Virus record (IMG/VR): IMGVR_UViG_2713897190_000002
Strand: one strand, 5' to 3'
Length of the DNA stretch: 38,367 nt
Source of the DNA: a virus
Taxonomy: Duplodnaviria > Heunggongvirae > Uroviricota > Caudoviricetes
Below the pieces are notes generated by a model. It had not been told where the DNA came from. It saw only the letters and a program-made list of their open reading frames with translations, and did no database searches. Below, one piece after another: positions 31,540 to 36,819 of the stretch (positions are counted from its first letter, which is position 1; each line of letters opens with the position of its first letter). Made by a program: the position numbers and the translations under genes.

Positions 31540-31836
31540 TCAGAATTCCATCTGGATTTGTTCAGAACGCTCGGTTGCCGCCGGGCGTTTTTTATTGGTG
31601 AGTCCATCAAGCGCATACTTAAAAGCCCTGCTAATCGGACTGATGTCTGATGCCATTCCGAAAGCACACAAGACCGAAGCAATAAATCTCCAGTCCGTTC
31701 TGCTTATCTTCGATTCATGACAGCCAATCATCTTTGCCAGACCGCGCTGGGTAATAGCTGACAGATTGATAAGTAAATCTGTTTCTGCGCGATCAACGTC
31801 ACGCTGTGATAGTTTGCTGTAACTTGTTCTTTCCAT
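31540..31836 (-). CDS. cII: transcriptional activator CII
   Basis: 98 aa; C-terminus LTNKKRPAATERSEQIQMEF matches lambda CII; the N-terminal region with its helix-turn-helix is diverged; lies between cro and O. Confidence 0.8.
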   Translation of the reverse strand: MERTSYSKLSQRDVDRAETDLLINLSAITQRGLAKMIGCHESKISRTDWRFIASVLCAFGMASDISPISRAFKYALDGLTNKKRPAATERSEQIQMEF

Positions 31837-31977: not shown

Positions 31978-32193
31978 TTAAGCGGCTTTGTGTTCCGGCG
32001 GGAACACGTCATCAAGACTGACTTTTGCGCCTAACTTGTTTAGGCACGCAACAAGAGCACGGCATGTTTTAAGGTCTGGGAAGCGACGACCAGATTCCCA
32101 ATGTCCGATAGCTCCCTGTGTGCATCCAACTGCCTTAGCAAGTGTTGTTTGAGAGATATTCAGTGACTCTCGATATTTTCGTAGGTTGCTCAT
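31978..32193 (-). CDS. cro: Cro repressor (helix-turn-helix)
   Basis: 71 aa from the internal ATG with GGAGG upstream; MSNLRKYRESLNISQTTLAKAVGCTQGAIGHWESGRR; divergent from cI; the track ORF is extended upstream. Confidence 0.8.
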   Translation of the reverse strand: MSNLRKYRESLNISQTTLAKAVGCTQGAIGHWESGRRFPDLKTCRALVACLNKLGAKVSLDDVFPPEHKAA

Positions 32194-32310
32194 ATGCCCT
32201 CCATAGTAAACACGAATAAAAAAATACAATATGTACTTTGCGAATACAAGTAAAAATACACATTGTGCATGGATGGTTCCAGTACAGAGCGTAATAATAA
32301 GGACATGAAA
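32194..32310. promoter_or_regulatory. divergent pR/pRM region with candidate operators (oR)
   Basis: AT-rich intergenic region between cro and cI with TACAAT...ATGTACT and ATACAAGTAAAAATACA repeats; a motif like AGTACATAT(T/C)GTA also occurs upstream of N. Confidence 0.4.
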
Positions 32311-32964
32311 ATGAAATGGTATGAACTGGCTAGATCCAGAATGAAAGAGCTCGGCATAACTCAAGAGAAGTTAGCCGAAGAGCTAGGTATGACGCAGGGT
32401 GGGATTGGACACTGGTTGCGCGGATCTCGTCATCCATCTCTTAGTGATATTGGTGTGGTGTTTAAATACCTTGGTATTGATAACATATCATTCAACCACG
32501 ACGGGACATTTTCACCTGTTGGCGAATACTCATCGGCCCCAGTTAAAAAACAATATGAGTACCCTGTTTTTTCTCATGTTCAGGCTGGGATGTTCTCTCC
32601 AGAACTCAGAACCTTTACCAAAGGCGATGCGGAGAGATTGGTAAGCACAACCAAAAAAGCCAGTGACTCTGCATTCTGGCTTGAGGTTGAAGGTAACTCA
32701 ATGACCGCACCAACAGGTTCCAAACCCAGCTTTCCTGACGGGATGTTAATTCTGGTTGACCCTGAGCAAGCTGTTGAGCCCGGCGATTTCTGCATAGCCA
32801 GACTTGGTGGTGATGAATTTACCTTCAAGAAACTGATCAGGGATAGCGGTCAGGTGTTTCTACAGCCACTAAACCCACAATACCCAATGATCCCATGCAA
32901 TGAGAGTTGTTCCGTTGTGGGGAAAGTTATCGCCAGCCAATGGCCTGAAGAGACGTTTGGGTGA
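32311..32964 (+). CDS. cI: CI repressor (N-terminal helix-turn-helix not lambda-type; C-terminal S24 LexA-like domain)
   Basis: C-terminal about 130 aa ([28 protein letters not shown]...[12 protein letters not shown]) nearly identical to lambda CI as recalled; N-terminal domain differs; start is ambiguous between ATG 32305 and 32311; the track ORF starts at TTG 32263. Confidence 0.88.
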
Positions 32965-33003
32965 TGAAACCACTTTTATCTACAATTTACAGGGCGGTAA
33001 ACA

Positions 33004-33561
33004 TTGGCAAAAATAGATGATTATCAGCCAAGCCAAGTAGAAGTTGATAAAGTACTTTATTGTAAAAAAATAGTTAACTTTTCTGGCGTTAAATGGAAAC
33101 AGAAACCAAGTCGCTCTGATATGTGGCTACAAGCCCATATCATCCCCTTGGATGAGGATTGTATACCTATACAAGGGCTAAAGTTTGAACTGAAATGGAA
33201 ACCAGATCAGGATTCAGAACCTGATGACCCGATTTCTTACCCTAAAATAAATATTATTGCTTTCTATCATAACAAGAGGGTTTTCGCGGTAGATACCTAT
33301 CACTTTGACAAACACACGAATAGTTACAAGGTCGATCATCCGAAGTACCAAGATATCATTTACGGTGCTCACTACCATGTATACTATGAAGAAGCTGGAT
33401 ACTATAGTGATAGAATAGCGTTTCCAATCGAAGATGACATAAACCCAGATGACCTGGTAGGGTATTGGAATTACTTCTGTAAACATCTGAACATAACTTA
33501 CTCTGGGAGAATACCTTTACCGCTTGAAGATGAGTCGGGGCAAATGGGGTTTGGAATATGA
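33004..33561 (+). CDS. unknown protein A (185 aa), first gene of the two-gene cargo in the rexAB slot
   Basis: ORF about 40 nt downstream of cI on the same strand; apparent TTG start (next in-frame ATG at codon 40); AT-rich; Tyr/His/Asp-rich; no motif recognised; its stop overlaps the start of gene B. Confidence 0.6.
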   Translation: MAKIDDYQPSQVEVDKVLYCKKIVNFSGVKWKQKPSRSDMWLQAHIIPLDEDCIPIQGLKFELKWKPDQDSEPDDPISYPKINIIAFYHNKRVFAVDTYHFDKHTNSYKVDHPKYQDIIYGAHYHVYYEEAGYYSDRIAFPIEDDINPDDLVGYWNYFCKHLNITYSGRIPLPLEDESGQMGFGI

Positions 33562-34310
33562 TGTGCTCAACAGTGATCTCACAACTAGGTTTCGAATGCC
33601 ATCCAATAGGCAAGACCTTGAGAATTATCAGTCCATTCACTTACTGTGATGATGGAGAGCATGTCGGTGCCTTTATCCGTGAAGTCAATGGTAGGTATTT
33701 AGTTAGTGACAGATGCGATGCCTTAATGAATATGGAGGCAAGAGGGATCTCGCTTACCAAAAAACGACTTGATGAGATACGACAATTACTGCTTAAAGAA
33801 GGCGCAGAACTCAATGCTCGAGGAGAAATCATTGCTTGGGCAACAGAAAAGGATGTCGGTGCGATTACATCGAACATAATTAGAGCTGGTATACTCGCAT
33901 CAACTTTGTCGTTAGACTGGTATCAGCCAGTTCAAGCTGAAAAGTTTGAAAGTATGGTTATTGATTATCTATATCACACAGAGCTTAGAGACGCACTTTC
34001 TCTTCGTGAAAACGTATATGGCTTGAGTGGACATCAAATTACCGTCCCTGTAACAATAAAAACCGACATACCTAAATACGTTTTTACATCAAGCGTGAAA
34101 CACGGAGGAAGCTGGAATAGTGCTTACTCATTGCTTGGGAAACTAATTGATCTTAAAGCTTCAAGTGAGGAGTATAACAACAGATTTGTTGTTATAGACA
34201 GCGAAGCAATTGGTGATCAAATGCAACAACTCTCCTTACTCTTCCATGAATCAAGCCAAGTTCTACCATTCTCCAAAAGAGAGACTTGGGTTAAGAGACT
34301 TGCAGCATAA
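33558..34310 (+). CDS. unknown protein B (250 aa), second gene of the two-gene cargo in the rexAB slot
   Basis: ATG overlapping the stop of gene A; AT-rich; followed by a rho-independent terminator; no motif recognised. Confidence 0.65.
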   Translation: MMCSTVISQLGFECHPIGKTLRIISPFTYCDDGEHVGAFIREVNGRYLVSDRCDALMNMEARGISLTKKRLDEIRQLLLKEGAELNARGEIIAWATEKDVGAITSNIIRAGILASTLSLDWYQPVQAEKFESMVIDYLYHTELRDALSLRENVYGLSGHQITVPVTIKTDIPKYVFTSSVKHGGSWNSAYSLLGKLIDLKASSEEYNNRFVVIDSEAIGDQMQQLSLLFHESSQVLPFSKRETWVKRLAA

Positions 34311-34315
34311 TACAA

Positions 34316-34341
34316 CCCGGCCTCAGCGCCGGGTTTTCTTT
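34316..34341 (+). terminator. rho-independent terminator after the cargo operon
   Basis: Hairpin CCCGGCCTCAGCGCCGGG followed by TTTTCTTT immediately after the gene B stop. Confidence 0.6.
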
Positions 34342-34345
34342 GCCT

Positions 34346-34560
34346 CACGTTTGCCCACCTAAAAACACATAACCAATTATATTTATTGAAAAATAAATAG
34401 ATGCAACCCACTAAACCACGCAATTCTGATCTCTCCTTACATCGCCGAGGCAATACATCCACGCTAAAAAACAACACTATTAAATACAAAGCGTTATAAA
34501 AAACCACGCCAACTTACAACAAATTGTATTGATCTTGTAAAGTACATATCGTACTATTTA
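34346..34560 (+). promoter_or_regulatory. candidate pL/oL region
   Basis: AT-rich region upstream of N containing the palindrome AGTACATATCGTACT and ACAACAAATTGT, similar to motifs in the cro-cI intergenic region. Confidence 0.3.
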
Positions 34561-34602
34561 ACCGTCAGCAGGACGCTGGAAGCCAAATGGAACAGACTGG
34601 CA

Positions 34603-34648
34603 GGCTCTTTAAACAACGTCGACTCTCGACTACGTGGCTGAAAAGCCA
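34603..34648 (+). promoter_or_regulatory. candidate nutL (boxA-like GGCTCTTTAAA and boxB hairpin TGGCTGAAAAGCCA)
   Basis: In the N leader: boxA-like sequence followed by a short stem-loop with a GAAAA-type loop. Confidence 0.4.
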
Positions 34649-34746
34649 GATCACCCAACCACATAAGCTGTGGGATGCAATGCCGAAGCAACCGTCTCAG
34701 GAGGAGCTTCGAGATTGCATCGCCAAAGTTTATTCGGGAGGAATCC

Positions 34747-35019
34747 ATGTCCAGAAAAACAGAATTTAAAGGCACCGCAGCTTCTCGCCGTAGAGCTCGT
34801 CGCGCAAATCTGCAAAGTCAGGAGGCGATCAGCTCCGACAAGCTACACAGGCCAACCCCTTCACGAGTGGTCTTGCAATGCAAGCTCAAACCAGCAATGA
34901 GAGCAGAAGTGATAACTCTGACAACGTTGACCAGAAAATATGAAGGTTCAACTTGTCTTCCGAACGTAGCTCTTTACGCGGCAGGCTACCGGAAATCAAA
35001 ACAACTGACGGCGAGATGA
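34747..35019 (+). CDS. N: antitermination protein N (P22 gene 24 / phage 21 type)
   Basis: 90 aa from the ATG with GGAGG upstream; Arg-rich motif GTAASRRRARRANLQ; C-terminus VALYAAGYRKSKQLTAR resembles P22 gene 24 as recalled; the track ORF is extended upstream. Confidence 0.8.
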   Translation: MSRKTEFKGTAASRRRARRANLQSQEAISSDKLHRPTPSRVVLQCKLKPAMRAEVITLTTLTRKYEGSTCLPNVALYAAGYRKSKQLTAR

Positions 35020-35035
35020 TAAATTCATTTGCTAA

Positions 35036-35617
35036 TTACTTGTTTTTGCCATGCTTATCCTGAGCGATAAGTTCATCCATAAGGCTGTCTGCCTTCCCGG
35101 CAAACCTAATGTAGCACTCATGTCTATAGCTTTCAGGGATAACGAAACGGTCGGTATCAGGATATCCAACAGCAGGAGGCCTTCGAACGAGGAGTCCTTT
35201 TTTGAGCAATGAAATTGATTCATGAGCGCCCTTTTCCGTTTGTAGCTGGTTATTAGCGGCTACAGCGAATGCCAAATACGCTCTTTCTCCAAGAGTTAAC
35301 GAATCAAACAAATCTTGCACATATTTTTCTTCTTTAGATTTGCGCTTCTGAGCAGCGAATACCTCAATTCTTTCAGTCACAGCGTGATAAGCGGAATTAA
35401 CAACGCCGTTAAGCACATAGCTAACGCAAAACAACAGGATGTAATACATCCAGTAATGAGGAAGGATTTCTGGACTATGCAGGTTTATCCATTCTTTTAC
35501 GCTTACCGGCATAACAATAATCAATATGATCAGGATGATTAGCATATGAATCAACTGTTTAAGTGTCATTCCTTGCAGGAAAAAATGCATTAGTTCCTGC
35601 CACCATGAGTTGTTCAT
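35036..35617 (-). CDS. sieB: superinfection exclusion protein SieB-like (membrane)
   Basis: 193 aa; N-terminal TM segments (LIHMLIILIILIIVMPV, YWMYYILLFCVSYVL); convergent with N, as lambda sieB is; recalled similarity to lambda SieB. Confidence 0.6.
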   Translation of the reverse strand: MNNSWWQELMHFFLQGMTLKQLIHMLIILIILIIVMPVSVKEWINLHSPEILPHYWMYYILLFCVSYVLNGVVNSAYHAVTERIEVFAAQKRKSKEEKYVQDLFDSLTLGERAYLAFAVAANNQLQTEKGAHESISLLKKGLLVRRPPAVGYPDTDRFVIPESYRHECYIRFAGKADSLMDELIAQDKHGKNK

Positions 35618-36582: not shown

Positions 36583-36654
36583 GCGCGGCGTTACCGCATA
36601 CCAATTACGCTTCACTCGAGGCGTTTTTCGTTATGTATAAATAAGGAGCACACC

Positions 36655-36819
36655 ATGCAATATGCCATTGCAGGGTGGCCTGTTGCTGGCTGCCCTTCCG
36701 AATCTTTACTTGAACGAATCACCCGTAAATTACGTGACGGATGGAAACGCCTTATCGACATACTTAATCAGCCAGGAGTCCCAAAAAATGGATCAAACAA
36801 TTATGGCTATCCAGACTAA
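36655..36819 (+). CDS. cIII: CIII protein (FtsH inhibitor)
   Basis: Found by manual translation (not in the track): [54 protein letters not shown], 54 aa, matches lambda CIII; AGGAG Shine-Dalgarno. Confidence 0.85.
   Translation: MQYAIAGWPVAGCPSESLLERITRKLRDGWKRLIDILNQPGVPKNGSNNYGYPD

What the first reader, a model, noticed from the sequence alone, without database searches (positions are those of the whole stretch)
33004..34341. Unrecognised AT-rich two-gene operon in the rexAB slot downstream of cI: candidate novel phage-defence or exclusion system
In lambda the genes immediately downstream of cI, co-transcribed with it in lysogens, are rexA/rexB, an abortive-infection system. Here the flanks are conserved (a cI with lambda-like C-terminal domain upstream; pL, nutL, N and sieB downstream), but the slot holds two ORFs of 185 and 250 aa that resemble neither Rex protein nor anything I recognise. 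They are on the cI strand, about 40 nt after the cI stop, with overlapping stop and start codons and a clean terminator after gene B. By eye they are markedly more AT-rich than the surrounding phage backbone, which suggests recent acquisition. Gene A appears to use a TTG start and is rich in Tyr, His and Asp; neither protein has obvious TM segments or a classic catalytic motif.
Basis: partly seen in the sequence, partly recalled or inferred. Interest (0 to 1): 0.85.

Follow-up and report, generated by a model that had tools for sequence, protein, structure and literature searches.

The report
Unknown two-gene cassette replacing lambda rexAB
A lambda-like prophage of E. coli, also found in the probiotic Nissle 1917 and the reference strain ATCC 25922, carries two uncharacterised, always-paired genes exactly where phage lambda keeps its rexAB exclusion genes; they are a strong but untested candidate for a new kind of prophage-encoded anti-phage system.

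Summary
Gene A (33004-33561, 185 aa, TTG start) and gene B (33558-34310, 250 aa, ATGA overlap) lie 39 nt after the cI stop and end at a clean terminator. Alignment to lambda shows that they replace rexA-rexB base for base.

Neither protein is related to RexA or RexB, and neither has a TM segment. A has no structural match in PDB or BFVD. It has an invariant Asp/His/Asn/His-x-His cluster and a conserved, probably disordered C-terminal tail. B is DUF1828: a YbjN/type-III-chaperone-like N-domain plus a restriction-endonuclease-fold C-domain that lacks the canonical PD-(D/E)xK residues.

The pair is inseparable: A lies directly upstream of B in 80 of 80 viral loci, and pairing holds down to about 22%/31% identity. 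It sits directly behind prophage repressors falling into about 19 sequence clusters, from E. coli to Aeromonas and Pseudomonas.

It is a remote homologue of PADLOC's untested candidate PDC-M24, so it is not fully "unrecognised".

A defence function is well supported by association but not shown (about 0.55). The mechanism is inferred only. I found no report that it has been tested, but Brenes & Laub 2025, the likely source of two phages carrying it, could not be read.

The parts
32194..32268 (.). Divergent cI-cro control region (OR/PRM/PR equivalent). This is the inferred source of the lysogenic transcript that covers cI, A and B.
   Evidence: It lies between the cro-like HTH gene (31978..32193, minus strand) and cI, as in PGAP's annotation of the identical Nissle locus. 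A 15-mer at 32225-32239 recurs in inverted orientation at 34539-34553 with one mismatch, as expected for shared OR/OL operators. Promoter activity was not tested.
32269..32964 (+). cI-type prophage repressor, the first gene of the inferred operon.
   Evidence: Pfam HTH_3 (E 2e-10) and Peptidase_S24 (E 1e-28). Bases 32554-32965 are 93.4% identical to lambda 37637-37226, the 3' half of cI. The PGAP start corresponds to 32269; the longest ORF starts at 32263.
32965..33003 (+). 39-nt cI-A spacer holding the left junction of the cassette and a GGGCGG Shine-Dalgarno-like element.
   Evidence: Homology to lambda ends at 32965. No terminator-like site lies in the spacer. Sequence read.
33004..33561 (+). 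Gene A: 185 aa, soluble and acidic (pI 5.3). It is a beta-hairpin-rich sheet with no match to known folds. Residues K22, W31, R92, D97, N106, G121, H123, H125, F158 and P173 are invariant and H104 nearly so. The C-terminal tail (175-185) is conserved but modelled with low confidence. The start codon is weak (TTG).
   Evidence: It belongs to phrog_2017 (E 6e-67). Its only other family hits are weak: DUF6978 (22 bits, below the gathering score of 29.6) and PDC-M24A (E 5e-4). Only 20 cluster representatives were found among 1.84 billion proteins.
33558..34310 (+). Gene B: 250 aa and soluble. The N-domain (DUF1828, about residues 1-120) is YbjN/type-III-secretion-chaperone-like. The C-domain (about 128-250) has a restriction-endonuclease-like alpha-beta-beta-beta-alpha-beta fold without the canonical PD-(D/E)xK residues. 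It ends in ...RLAA and is translationally coupled to A through an ATGA overlap.
   Evidence: DUF1828, 33.5 bits against a gathering score of 22; PDC-M24B, full length, E 5e-10; best family member 2e-15; phrog_1960, E 2e-106.
34314..34343 (+). Rho-independent terminator that closes the cI-A-B unit. It belongs to the conserved lambdoid backbone (equivalent to the terminator after lambda rexB), not to the cassette.
   Evidence: Hairpin AACCCGGCC-TCAG-CGCCGGGTT followed by TTCTTTG. Bases 34314-34435 are 89.3% identical to lambda 35826-35708, starting at the rexB stop codon. The same hairpin follows B in E. coli ST130, Klebsiella, Salmonella, Izhakiella, Yersinia, Pantoea and a 62%-GC metagenome locus.

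Best explanation
A and B form a prophage accessory cassette that is expressed in the lysogen and most likely acts as a two-protein, cytoplasmic anti-phage system (exclusion or abortive infection). It is a divergent, prophage-borne branch of the untested PADLOC candidate PDC-M24.

Proposed working, with the status of each step:
1. Position (shown from sequence). The cassette sits between cI and the terminator that precedes OL/pL, on the cI strand, with no terminator between cI and A.
2. Transcription (inferred). The only upstream same-strand promoters are therefore the PRM/PRE equivalents, so A and B would be made together with the repressor in lysogens, as rexAB is in lambda.
3. Dosage (shown from sequence). 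A starts with TTG or GTG in nearly all homologues and B is coupled to it by an ATGA overlap. Expression should therefore be low and the A:B ratio fixed.
4. Complex formation (inferred). A and B form a complex. The conserved, probably disordered C-terminal tail of A ([SG]-G-Q-x-x-[LF]) is the best candidate for docking into B's chaperone-like N-domain, a fold that binds extended peptides in type III secretion chaperones.
5. Trigger and effect (inferred, least certain). A heterologous phage disturbs this complex, either because a phage protein competes for the chaperone-like domain or because one subunit is lost. This frees a harmful activity that stops phage development. That activity would reside either in A's invariant Asp/His/Asn/His-x-His cluster (a putative metal or phosphate site) or in B's nuclease-fold domain.
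For: Exact replacement of rexA-rexB:
- Homology to lambda stops at the cI stop codon and resumes at the rexB stop codon.

Obligate pairing:
- A lies directly upstream of B in every locus that contains B: L001-L013, L016-L028 and L030, 80 of 80 IMG/VR loci, and Pseudomonas phage phPA-G. Locus L020 is the exception in how this was established. tblastn with the window's A found nothing there, and pairing rests on the profile hit P0091 that lies next to B.
- Pairing holds down to 21-23% (A) and 31% (B) identity.

Position behind repressors:
- In 73-74 of 80 viral loci the next upstream same-strand ORF is an HTH and/or S24 repressor.
- These repressors fall into about 19 clusters at 60% identity. 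About 13 clusters were checked with Pfam; the rest were judged from length and the G-D/N-S-M motif.
- The same arrangement occurs in Salmonella, Klebsiella, Aeromonas, Yersinia, Xenorhabdus and Pantoea genomes.
- An identical A allele lies behind unrelated repressors: the 131-aa HTH protein of L086 and the 253-aa S24 protein of L089.
- The identical CI protein WP_001302016.1 is followed in strain ST130 by an allele only 41% (A) and 51% (B) identical.

Variable slot:
- Phage 2B8 has a NYN-domain gene there, HK542 has two other genes and lambda has rexAB.
- The cI-N interval is a published hotspot holding RexAB and BstA (PMC8585504).

Link to a defence candidate:
- B matches PDC-M24B over its full length (10 of 11 diverse homologues; best E 1.8e-15). 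A matches PDC-M24A weakly.
- PDC-M24 has the same A>>B gene order and was nominated because it is embedded in BREX, DISARM or type I RM loci.
- Four of eight randomly chosen PADLOC candidate systems (seven PDC, one HEC) protected against phage when tested.

Other points:
- A diverges faster than B in every comparison: 70/84, 44/65, 36/54, 41/51 and 22/31% identity.
- The Nissle 1917 study concluded that an unidentified factor of this same prophage must contribute to resistance to lambdoid phages (PMC5987069).
Against: - There is no phenotype, expression or interaction data for these genes, or for PDC-M24, in any paper I could read.
- All the evidence for defence is by association. The cI-adjacent slot can also carry non-defence cargo.
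- The A-B contact and the trigger are pure inference.
- One distant pair (L020) lies in what looks like an ordinary chromosomal neighbourhood (MerR, RsmJ, cation efflux).
- Plaque-forming phages (ev017, ev207, PhiR57_1, PhiR63_2) carry the cassette, so it does not block its own phage.
Confidence: 0.55

Rival explanations
1. A toxin-antitoxin-like addiction or stress module that stabilises the prophage, or responds to loss of repressor-operon transcription, without a dedicated anti-phage role. One subunit is a labile neutraliser and the other is harmful when freed.
For: - Two small genes with an ATGA overlap and a weak first start codon.
- A has a conserved tail modelled at low confidence, as many antitoxins do.
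- B ends in ...LAA, IAA or LVA in nearly all homologues. This resembles the ssrA-type ClpX recognition end (my own knowledge).
- One chromosomal, non-prophage context exists (L020).
Against: - Neither protein has a DNA-binding antitoxin domain or a known toxin fold.
- The strict association with the repressor-downstream slot in about 19 immunity types is not needed for addiction.
- Many TA-like modules in prophages are in fact defence systems, so this rival overlaps with the best explanation.
Confidence: 0.15
2. An accessory regulator of the phage's own lysis-lysogeny decision or induction. This would resemble the second role described for lambda RexA and RexB, which bias the switch towards lytic growth.
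For: - Same operon position as rexAB.
- RexA is reported to bind DNA and to modulate the bistable switch (abstract of PMC11077077; text of PMC12894663).
- B has a DNA-enzyme-like fold without the catalytic residues, which would suit a DNA-binding role.
Against: - The identical cassette serves unrelated repressors, both S24-type and short non-cleavable HTH types (128-148 aa). The same repressor also takes a 41%/51% allele or entirely different cargo. This argues against a specific partnership with the switch proteins or operators.
- Remote relatives are reported embedded in RM, BREX and DISARM loci, where there is no switch.
Confidence: 0.12
3. A lysogenic-conversion factor that changes host physiology (regulation, stress tolerance or colonisation) and is unrelated to phages.
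For: - B's N-domain resembles YbjN-family and DUF2170 regulators, namely PA14_16140 (a biofilm operon regulator) and AmyR.
- This allele is present in 241 of 5,426 complete E. coli genomes. They include Nissle 1917, ATCC 25922, NU14 and the type strain.
- The same prophage carries other morons: bor and a porin gene.
Against: - Both proteins are cytoplasmic, with no signal peptide or TM segment.
- The pair occurs in hosts as different as Aeromonas, Pseudomonas, Xenorhabdus and Thorsellia. This fits a phage-directed function better than a host-niche function.
- The link to PDC-M24 also points away from this reading.
Confidence: 0.1

Closest known systems
Lambda RexA/RexB exclusion system
   Same: Exactly the same genomic slot, from the cI stop codon to the terminator before OL/pL. 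Two genes on the cI strand, presumably co-transcribed with the repressor in lysogens. Both are cargo of the same variable hotspot.
   Different: No sequence relationship (hhalign probability below 1%). RexB is described as a membrane ion channel (PMC8585504), whereas neither A nor B has a TM segment. RexA is structurally similar to RdgC according to PMC12315714, whereas A is a beta-hairpin sheet with no fold match. A membrane-depolarisation mechanism is therefore not expected.
PADLOC phage-defence candidate PDC-M24 (cassette FAM_00129>>FAM_00065; Payne et al. 2024, bioRxiv 10.1101/2024.01.29.577857)
   Same: A two-gene cassette in the same order. B aligns over the full length of the PDC-M24B models (E 5e-10; best relative 2e-15). 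A hits PDC-M24A around the His-x-His region.
   Different: The relationship is remote. The A hit has E 5e-4 and covers only about a third of the protein. The Pfam counterpart DUF6978 scores below its gathering threshold. PDC-M24 was nominated from embedding in BREX, DISARM or type I RM loci, whereas this branch lives in prophage immunity regions. PDC-M24 is listed among the untested candidates, and I found no later test.
BstA of Salmonella prophage BTP1
   Same: Encoded directly downstream of the prophage repressor, and that position is conserved across diverse Gram-negative prophages. BstA is a proven abortive-infection system expressed in lysogens (PMC8585504).
   Different: BstA is a single protein with a DNA-based self-immunity element (aba). 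No BstA-type model hit A or B in PADLOC or Pfam.
Toxin-antitoxin-chaperone (TAC) defence systems
   Same: This is an analogy of logic only. In TAC systems a chaperone recognises an extension of its partner, and the systems act in phage defence (abstract of bioRxiv 10.1101/2024.02.24.581848). Here a chaperone-like domain (B) is paired with a protein that has a conserved, probably disordered tail (A).
   Different: TAC systems have three genes and a SecB-like chaperone. Here there are two genes, and the chaperone-like fold is of the YbjN/type-III-secretion type fused to a nuclease-fold domain. No interaction has been shown.
PD-(D/E)xK nucleases (type II restriction enzymes PspGI, NgoMIV and Cfr10I; CRISPR ancillary nuclease Can2)
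   Different: The acidic and lysine catalytic residues are not conserved in the B family. The invariant residues are G155, S157, G158, P164, G194 and D198, with H159 nearly invariant. There is no CARF domain. Catalysis is therefore doubtful or non-canonical.

Membership tests
Lambda RexAB | A RexA homologue is present | tested here: not met
   hhalign of the A and B family profiles against lambda RexA gave probabilities of 0.4% and 0.3%. No Rex model hit in Pfam or PADLOC.
Lambda RexAB | A RexB-type membrane protein is present (RexB is described as an ion channel in PMC8585504) | tested here: not met
   hhalign of B against RexB gave a probability of 0.1%. The maximum 19-residue hydropathy is 0.45 for A and 1.19 for B, so neither has a TM segment.
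Lambda RexAB | Location between cI and the terminator before OL/pL, on the cI strand | tested here: met
   Homology to lambda breaks at the cI stop codon and resumes at the rexB stop codon.
PADLOC candidate PDC-M24 | The B component matches the PDC-M24B models | tested here: met
   PDLC04540, E 4.7e-10, protein residues 2-249 against model positions 4-254 of 256. Ten of 11 diverse homologues hit, with a best E of 1.8e-15.
PADLOC candidate PDC-M24 | The A component matches the PDC-M24A models | tested here: inconclusive
   PDLC04536, E 4.8e-4, 18 bits, residues 104-163 only. Only 3 of 15 family members reach E 1e-2 for any one model.
PADLOC candidate PDC-M24 | Two adjacent genes in the order A then B | tested here: met
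   The cassette is listed as FAM_00129>>FAM_00065. Here A is immediately upstream of B with a 4-nt overlap.
PADLOC candidate PDC-M24 | Embedding within BREX, DISARM or type I RM loci (the criterion used for its discovery) | tested here: not met
   In this window, and in every related locus whose neighbouring genes were examined, the neighbours are prophage immunity genes. In the 80 IMG/VR loci only the next upstream ORF was checked, and it is a repressor in 73-74 of them.
Pfam DUF1828 | Score above the Pfam gathering threshold | tested here: met
   B scores 33.5 bits against a threshold of 22, over residues 26-110. All 11 diverse homologues hit.
Pfam DUF6978 | Score above the Pfam gathering threshold | tested here: not met
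   A scores 22.0 bits against a threshold of 29.6, for the C-terminal part only. Five of 15 relatives hit, with a best E of 1e-4.
PD-(D/E)xK nuclease superfamily | Restriction-endonuclease-like core fold | tested here: met
PD-(D/E)xK nuclease superfamily | Conserved catalytic Asp ... (Asp/Glu)-x-Lys residues on strands 2 and 3 | tested here: not met
   The start of strand 2 reads S-G-H. Strand 3 reads K-Y-V-F-T-S, with K173 and position 176 variable in distant homologues. Only D198 (invariant) and the acidic residue at 213/214 are conserved.
YbjN / type III secretion chaperone-like fold | Fold similarity of B's N-terminal domain | tested here: met
Type II toxin-antitoxin systems | A recognisable toxin fold plus an antitoxin with a DNA-binding domain | tested here: not met
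   No TA family hit in Pfam, NCBIfam or PADLOC. Toxicity and protein stability cannot be tested with these tools.
BstA | A BstA-type protein | tested here: not met
   No hit other than PDC-M24 in PADLOC, and none other than DUF1828 and DUF6978 in Pfam.

The most novel reading that the evidence does not exclude
A and B are the founding, experimentally tractable example of a mechanistically new prophage immunity system. In it, a chaperone-like and nuclease-fold protein (B) together with an orphan-fold protein carrying a His cluster (A) sense heterologous phages without any known sensor or effector domain. The system would be the unidentified 'prophage 3' factor behind the resistance of E. coli Nissle 1917, and of other strains carrying this allele such as ATCC 25922, to lambda and Stx phages.
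Probability: 0.3. Interest if true: 0.8.

Novelty: new variant of a known kind. Interest (0 to 1): 0.6.

Why it matters
- The rexAB position is the classic site of prophage-encoded exclusion. Showing that a conserved, unrelated two-gene unit fills exactly that site behind about 19 repressor types gives a well-defined new candidate for prophage immunity.
- Both proteins lack known functional domains, and one has no fold match. A positive phenotype would therefore open a new mechanism rather than add another member to a known one.
- It is directly testable. The identical cassette is present in Nissle 1917, ATCC 25922, the E. coli type strain and plaque-forming phages (ev017, ev207, PhiR57_1, PhiR63_2).
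- It could explain the unidentified prophage-borne component of Nissle's resistance to lambda and Stx phages (PMC5987069).
- It would also be the first functional evidence for the PDC-M24 family.
- For phage therapy and engineered probiotics, such cassettes affect which phages can infect these strains.

Tried and rejected
- **PDB sequence searches, gene A.** Both A profiles gave nothing credible. The hit to a nicotinamide-nucleotide adenylyltransferase had E 0.21. The hit to the designed Kelch-type repeat protein 8pjr (E 3e-12) had no single stretch passing on its own, so it is a repeat-summing artefact.
- **PDB sequence searches, gene B.** Only chance-level hits.
- **Nuclease reading for B.** I rejected B as an active canonical PD-(D/E)xK nuclease because the catalytic positions are not conserved.
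- **NCBIfam.** Nothing for either protein.
- **Internal promoters.** Promoter-like sites were fewer than in shuffled sequence (5 found against 7.1 expected), so I make no claim of an internal promoter.
- **Rfam and tRNA scans.** Nothing in the cassette.
- **Locus search with the divergent A alignment.** It failed because no stretch was conserved enough.
- **Literature.** There were no hits for PDC-M24 or for the two WP accessions. DUF1828 and DUF6978 gave only incidental mentions.
- **Nissle 'phage repressor (pr)'.** This is not part of the cassette. Its primers map to the cII ORF.
- **Brenes & Laub 2025.** This paper (Cell Host Microbe, PMID 40409266) is probably the source of phages PhiR57_1 and PhiR63_2. 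It is not held in the library. Their GenBank records call both genes 'hypothetical protein'.
Full report
**1. What is there**

The window carries a lambdoid prophage immunity region, read in the direction of lambda's leftward transcription. The gene order is:
- cro-like gene (minus strand);
- cI (32269/32263..32964, plus strand);
- a 39-nt spacer;
- gene A (33004..33561, 185 aa, TTG start);
- gene B (33558..34310, 250 aa), overlapping A by ATGA;
- a hairpin terminator (34314-34335 plus a T-run);
- an operator-like and promoter-like region;
- N (34675..35019);
- sieB (35036..35617, minus strand).

PGAP annotates A and B with the same coordinates in E. coli Nissle 1917, as 'hypothetical protein' and 'DUF1828 domain-containing protein'.

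A+B is 39.6% GC, against 50.8% for the window and 45.4% for the 3-kb flanks. That places it in the lowest 0.7% of equal-sized windows. Both proteins are soluble and acidic, and neither has a TM-like segment.

**2. It replaces rexAB base for base**

Against lambda, homology (93.4%) runs through the 3' half of cI and stops at the cI stop codon (window 32965 = lambda 37226). It resumes (89.3%) at window 34314 = lambda 35826, which is the stop codon of rexB.

The terminator therefore belongs to the shared backbone, not to the cargo. The cargo (32966-34313) is an exact substitute for rexA-rexB.

Other phages with the same flanks hold other cargo. Phage 2B8 has a NYN-domain gene, and HK542/HK244 have two unrelated genes. 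The cI-N interval is already described as a hotspot of mosaic diversity that holds RexAB and BstA (PMC8585504).

Profile comparison shows no relation of A or B to RexA or RexB (probability below 1%).

**3. The pair is one unit with a conserved address**

- B has 47 relatives at 90% clustering, from Enterobacterales and Aeromonas.
- A belongs to a very small family: 20 cluster representatives among 1.84 billion proteins.
- B was found in only 8 loci among the representative genomes of 185,579 species. One of those is a 518-bp contig that looks like contamination.
- A lies directly upstream of B, usually with the ATGA overlap, in every locus that contains B. This includes all 80 IMG/VR loci and two metagenomic pairs that are only 22-23% (A) and 31% (B) identical. 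In the most distant pair, L020, the A partner was detected only by the family profile (P0091), not by tblastn.
- A temperate Pseudomonas phage also has the pair. Its A homologue is not annotated in the GenBank record.

In 73-74 of the 80 viral loci, the next upstream ORF on the same strand is an HTH and/or Peptidase_S24 repressor. These repressors fall into about 19 clusters at 60% identity. About 13 clusters were verified with Pfam; the rest were judged by length and the G-D/N-S-M motif. In five further loci a DUF3024 gene lies between the repressor and A.

Genome contexts in Salmonella, Klebsiella, Aeromonas, Yersinia, Xenorhabdus and Pantoea show the same arrangement.

Two observations argue for cassette exchange:
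- An identical A allele sits behind unrelated repressors, in L086 and L089.
- The identical CI protein (WP_001302016.1) is followed in E. coli ST130 by an allele only 41% (A) and 51% (B) identical.

A always diverges faster than B.

This exact allele is present in 241 of 5,426 complete E. coli genomes. They include Nissle 1917, ATCC 25922, the type strain ATCC 11775, NU14 and clone D i2. It is also carried by the plaque-forming phages ev017, ev207, PhiR57_1 and PhiR63_2.

**4. What the proteins look like**

Protein A:
- The model has a mean pLDDT of 82. It is a sheet of beta-hairpins with two helices.
- Across the whole family, K22, W31, R92, D97, N106, G121, H123, H125, F158 and P173 are invariant and H104 nearly so. 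The motif reads G-x-H-x-H-x(3-4)-E/D.
- The last 11 residues are modelled at pLDDT below 50 but carry a conserved [SG]-G-Q-x-x-[LF] motif. That is the signature of a short partner-binding tail.
- The N-terminus Met-Ala-Lys is invariant among the close homologues. The start codon is TTG or GTG in nearly all lineages.

Protein B:
- The model has a mean pLDDT of 83.5 and two domains.
- The canonical PD-(D/E)xK residues are not conserved. The invariant positions are G155, S157, G158, P164, G194 and D198, with H159 nearly invariant and a conserved acidic residue at 213/214.
- B ends in LAA, IAA or LVA in most homologues.

**5. Link to known catalogues**

- PADLOC-DB gives one family for each gene, and both belong to the same candidate system. 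B matches PDC-M24B over its full length (E 5e-10; 10 of 11 diverse homologues; best E 2e-15). A matches PDC-M24A weakly (E 5e-4, around the His motif).
- In Pfam, B is DUF1828 above threshold and A is DUF6978 below threshold.
- PDC-M24 is the cassette FAM_00129>>FAM_00065. It is one of 145 untested candidates nominated because they are embedded in BREX, DISARM or type I RM loci (bioRxiv 10.1101/2024.01.29.577857).
- In an independent study, four of eight randomly chosen PADLOC candidate systems (seven PDC, one HEC) protected E. coli. PDC-M24 was not among those tested.
- I found no paper that tests PDC-M24, DUF1828, DUF6978 or these accessions.

**6. Most likely function and mechanism**

Two independent lines of guilt by association point to an anti-phage role. 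One is the rexAB/BstA slot behind many repressor types. The other is remote homology to a cassette embedded in defence loci.

From the architecture, only the PRM/PRE equivalents can transcribe A and B. The weak start codon and the translational coupling imply low, fixed-ratio expression.

I propose that A and B form a cytoplasmic complex through A's tail and B's chaperone-like domain. A heterologous phage would disturb this complex and release a harmful activity. I cannot say which subunit is the effector:
- A has the only invariant catalytic-looking polar cluster.
- B has a nuclease fold with a degenerate active site.

I put about 0.55 on the defence function and about 0.2 on the specific docking-and-release model.

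The rivals are:
- a TA-like addiction module (0.15);
- a modulator of the phage's own switch (0.12), weakened because the same cassette serves unrelated repressors, including non-cleavable ones;
- a host-physiology conversion factor (0.10).

**7. Novelty and caveats**

This is not a member of any characterised family. It is a divergent, prophage-borne branch of a catalogued but untested candidate, sitting in a known hotspot. I therefore rate it 'new variant of a known kind'.

Caveats:
- Everything about function is inferred.
- No A-B complex prediction could be run.
- AFDB could not be searched.
- Brenes & Laub 2025, the paper probably tied to phages PhiR57_1 and PhiR63_2, is not in the library. 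Their GenBank records still call both genes hypothetical.

The Nissle 1917 study attributed part of that strain's resistance to lambda and Stx phages to an unidentified factor of this same prophage. The gene it tested ('pr') maps to cII, not to this cassette. A/B is therefore an obvious untested candidate for that factor.

Noticed in passing
window 31540..31836 (-): The 'phage repressor (pr)' gene EcN_1294 of the Nissle 1917 study (PMC5987069) gave about 200-fold lower plating of lambda and Stx phages when cloned on pUC19. Both its cloning primers and one of its two qPCR primers map to the cII-family ORF of this prophage, not to a repressor gene.
   Followed up: yes
L030:3841-5889 (E. coli ST130, NZ_CP043478): The identical CI protein (WP_001302016.1) is followed by a divergent allele of the cassette (A' 41% and B' 51% identical). 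About 31 of the 5,426 complete E. coli genomes carry a divergent allele of this kind.
   Followed up: yes
L021:4044-5001; L023 and L024:4052-5001; IMG/VR loci L069-L072 and L074: In Izhakiella and Providencia prophages a DUF3024 gene lies between the repressor and gene A. In L021 a short 'WPDETFG-stop' remnant of a lambda-like cI 3' end sits immediately before A, which suggests that the cassette moved together with the end of cI.
   Followed up: partly
L111:2920-4256 (Pseudomonas phage VB_PaD_phPA-G, PP083311): A distant copy of the pair lies downstream of the CI-like repressor and a 216-aa gene. The A homologue has an internal Met-Ala-Lys start, the H-x-H motif and the GQ tail, but it is not annotated in the GenBank record.
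   Followed up: partly
window 34296..34310 (C-terminus of B) and homologues: B ends in ...RLAA, and nearly all homologues end in LAA, IAA or LVA. This resembles the ssrA-type C-terminal signal recognised by ClpX (from my own knowledge). It may mean that B is a labile subunit, or it may simply be the end of a helix.
   Followed up: no
window 34314..34343; lambda 35826 and leftwards; L006, L010, L018, L021, L022, L026, L030 after gene B: The terminator hairpin AACCCGGCC-N4-GCGCCGGGTTTTT is conserved after the cargo in lambda, in many lambdoid phages and even in a 62%-GC metagenomic locus. Together with the 3' end of cI it may act as the homologous anchor for cassette exchange.
   Followed up: partly
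window 33004 and gene A starts in L002-L030 and L031-L110: Gene A uses TTG or GTG in almost every lineage. ATG was seen only in Thorsellia, in two distant metagenomic or chromosomal loci and in one IMG/VR locus. This points to selection for weak translation initiation.
   Followed up: partly
window 23490..23831 (+), 25562..26704 (+), 24321..24818 (-): Other moron-like cargo lies near the lysis genes. There is a small lipoprotein-like ORF that I take to be Bor-like and a 380-aa ORF that reads like an OmpC/NmpC-type porin. They lie beside a second low-GC patch (about 24.6-25.4 kb, about 39.5% GC). These identifications come from reading the translations only, with no family search.
   Followed up: no
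window 36642..36700 (+): Rfam finds the lambda cIII thermoregulator RNA element (88.5 bits) at the start of the cIII ORF (36655..36819).
   Followed up: no
L028 (NZ_JBHSON010000334.1, 'Actinomadura rugatobispora', 518 bp): A 518-bp contig in an actinomycete assembly encodes the end of A and the start of B at 64% and 82% identity to the E. coli proteins. This is almost certainly enterobacterial contamination of that assembly.
   Followed up: no
window 34587..35019 (+): The annotation of N is inconsistent between records. PGAP calls two overlapping 'hypothetical proteins' in Nissle 1917, and PhiR57_1 annotates a 90-aa N. The 114-aa ORF starting at 34675 matches the Pfam N_peptide model from residue 23 onwards.
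   Followed up: no
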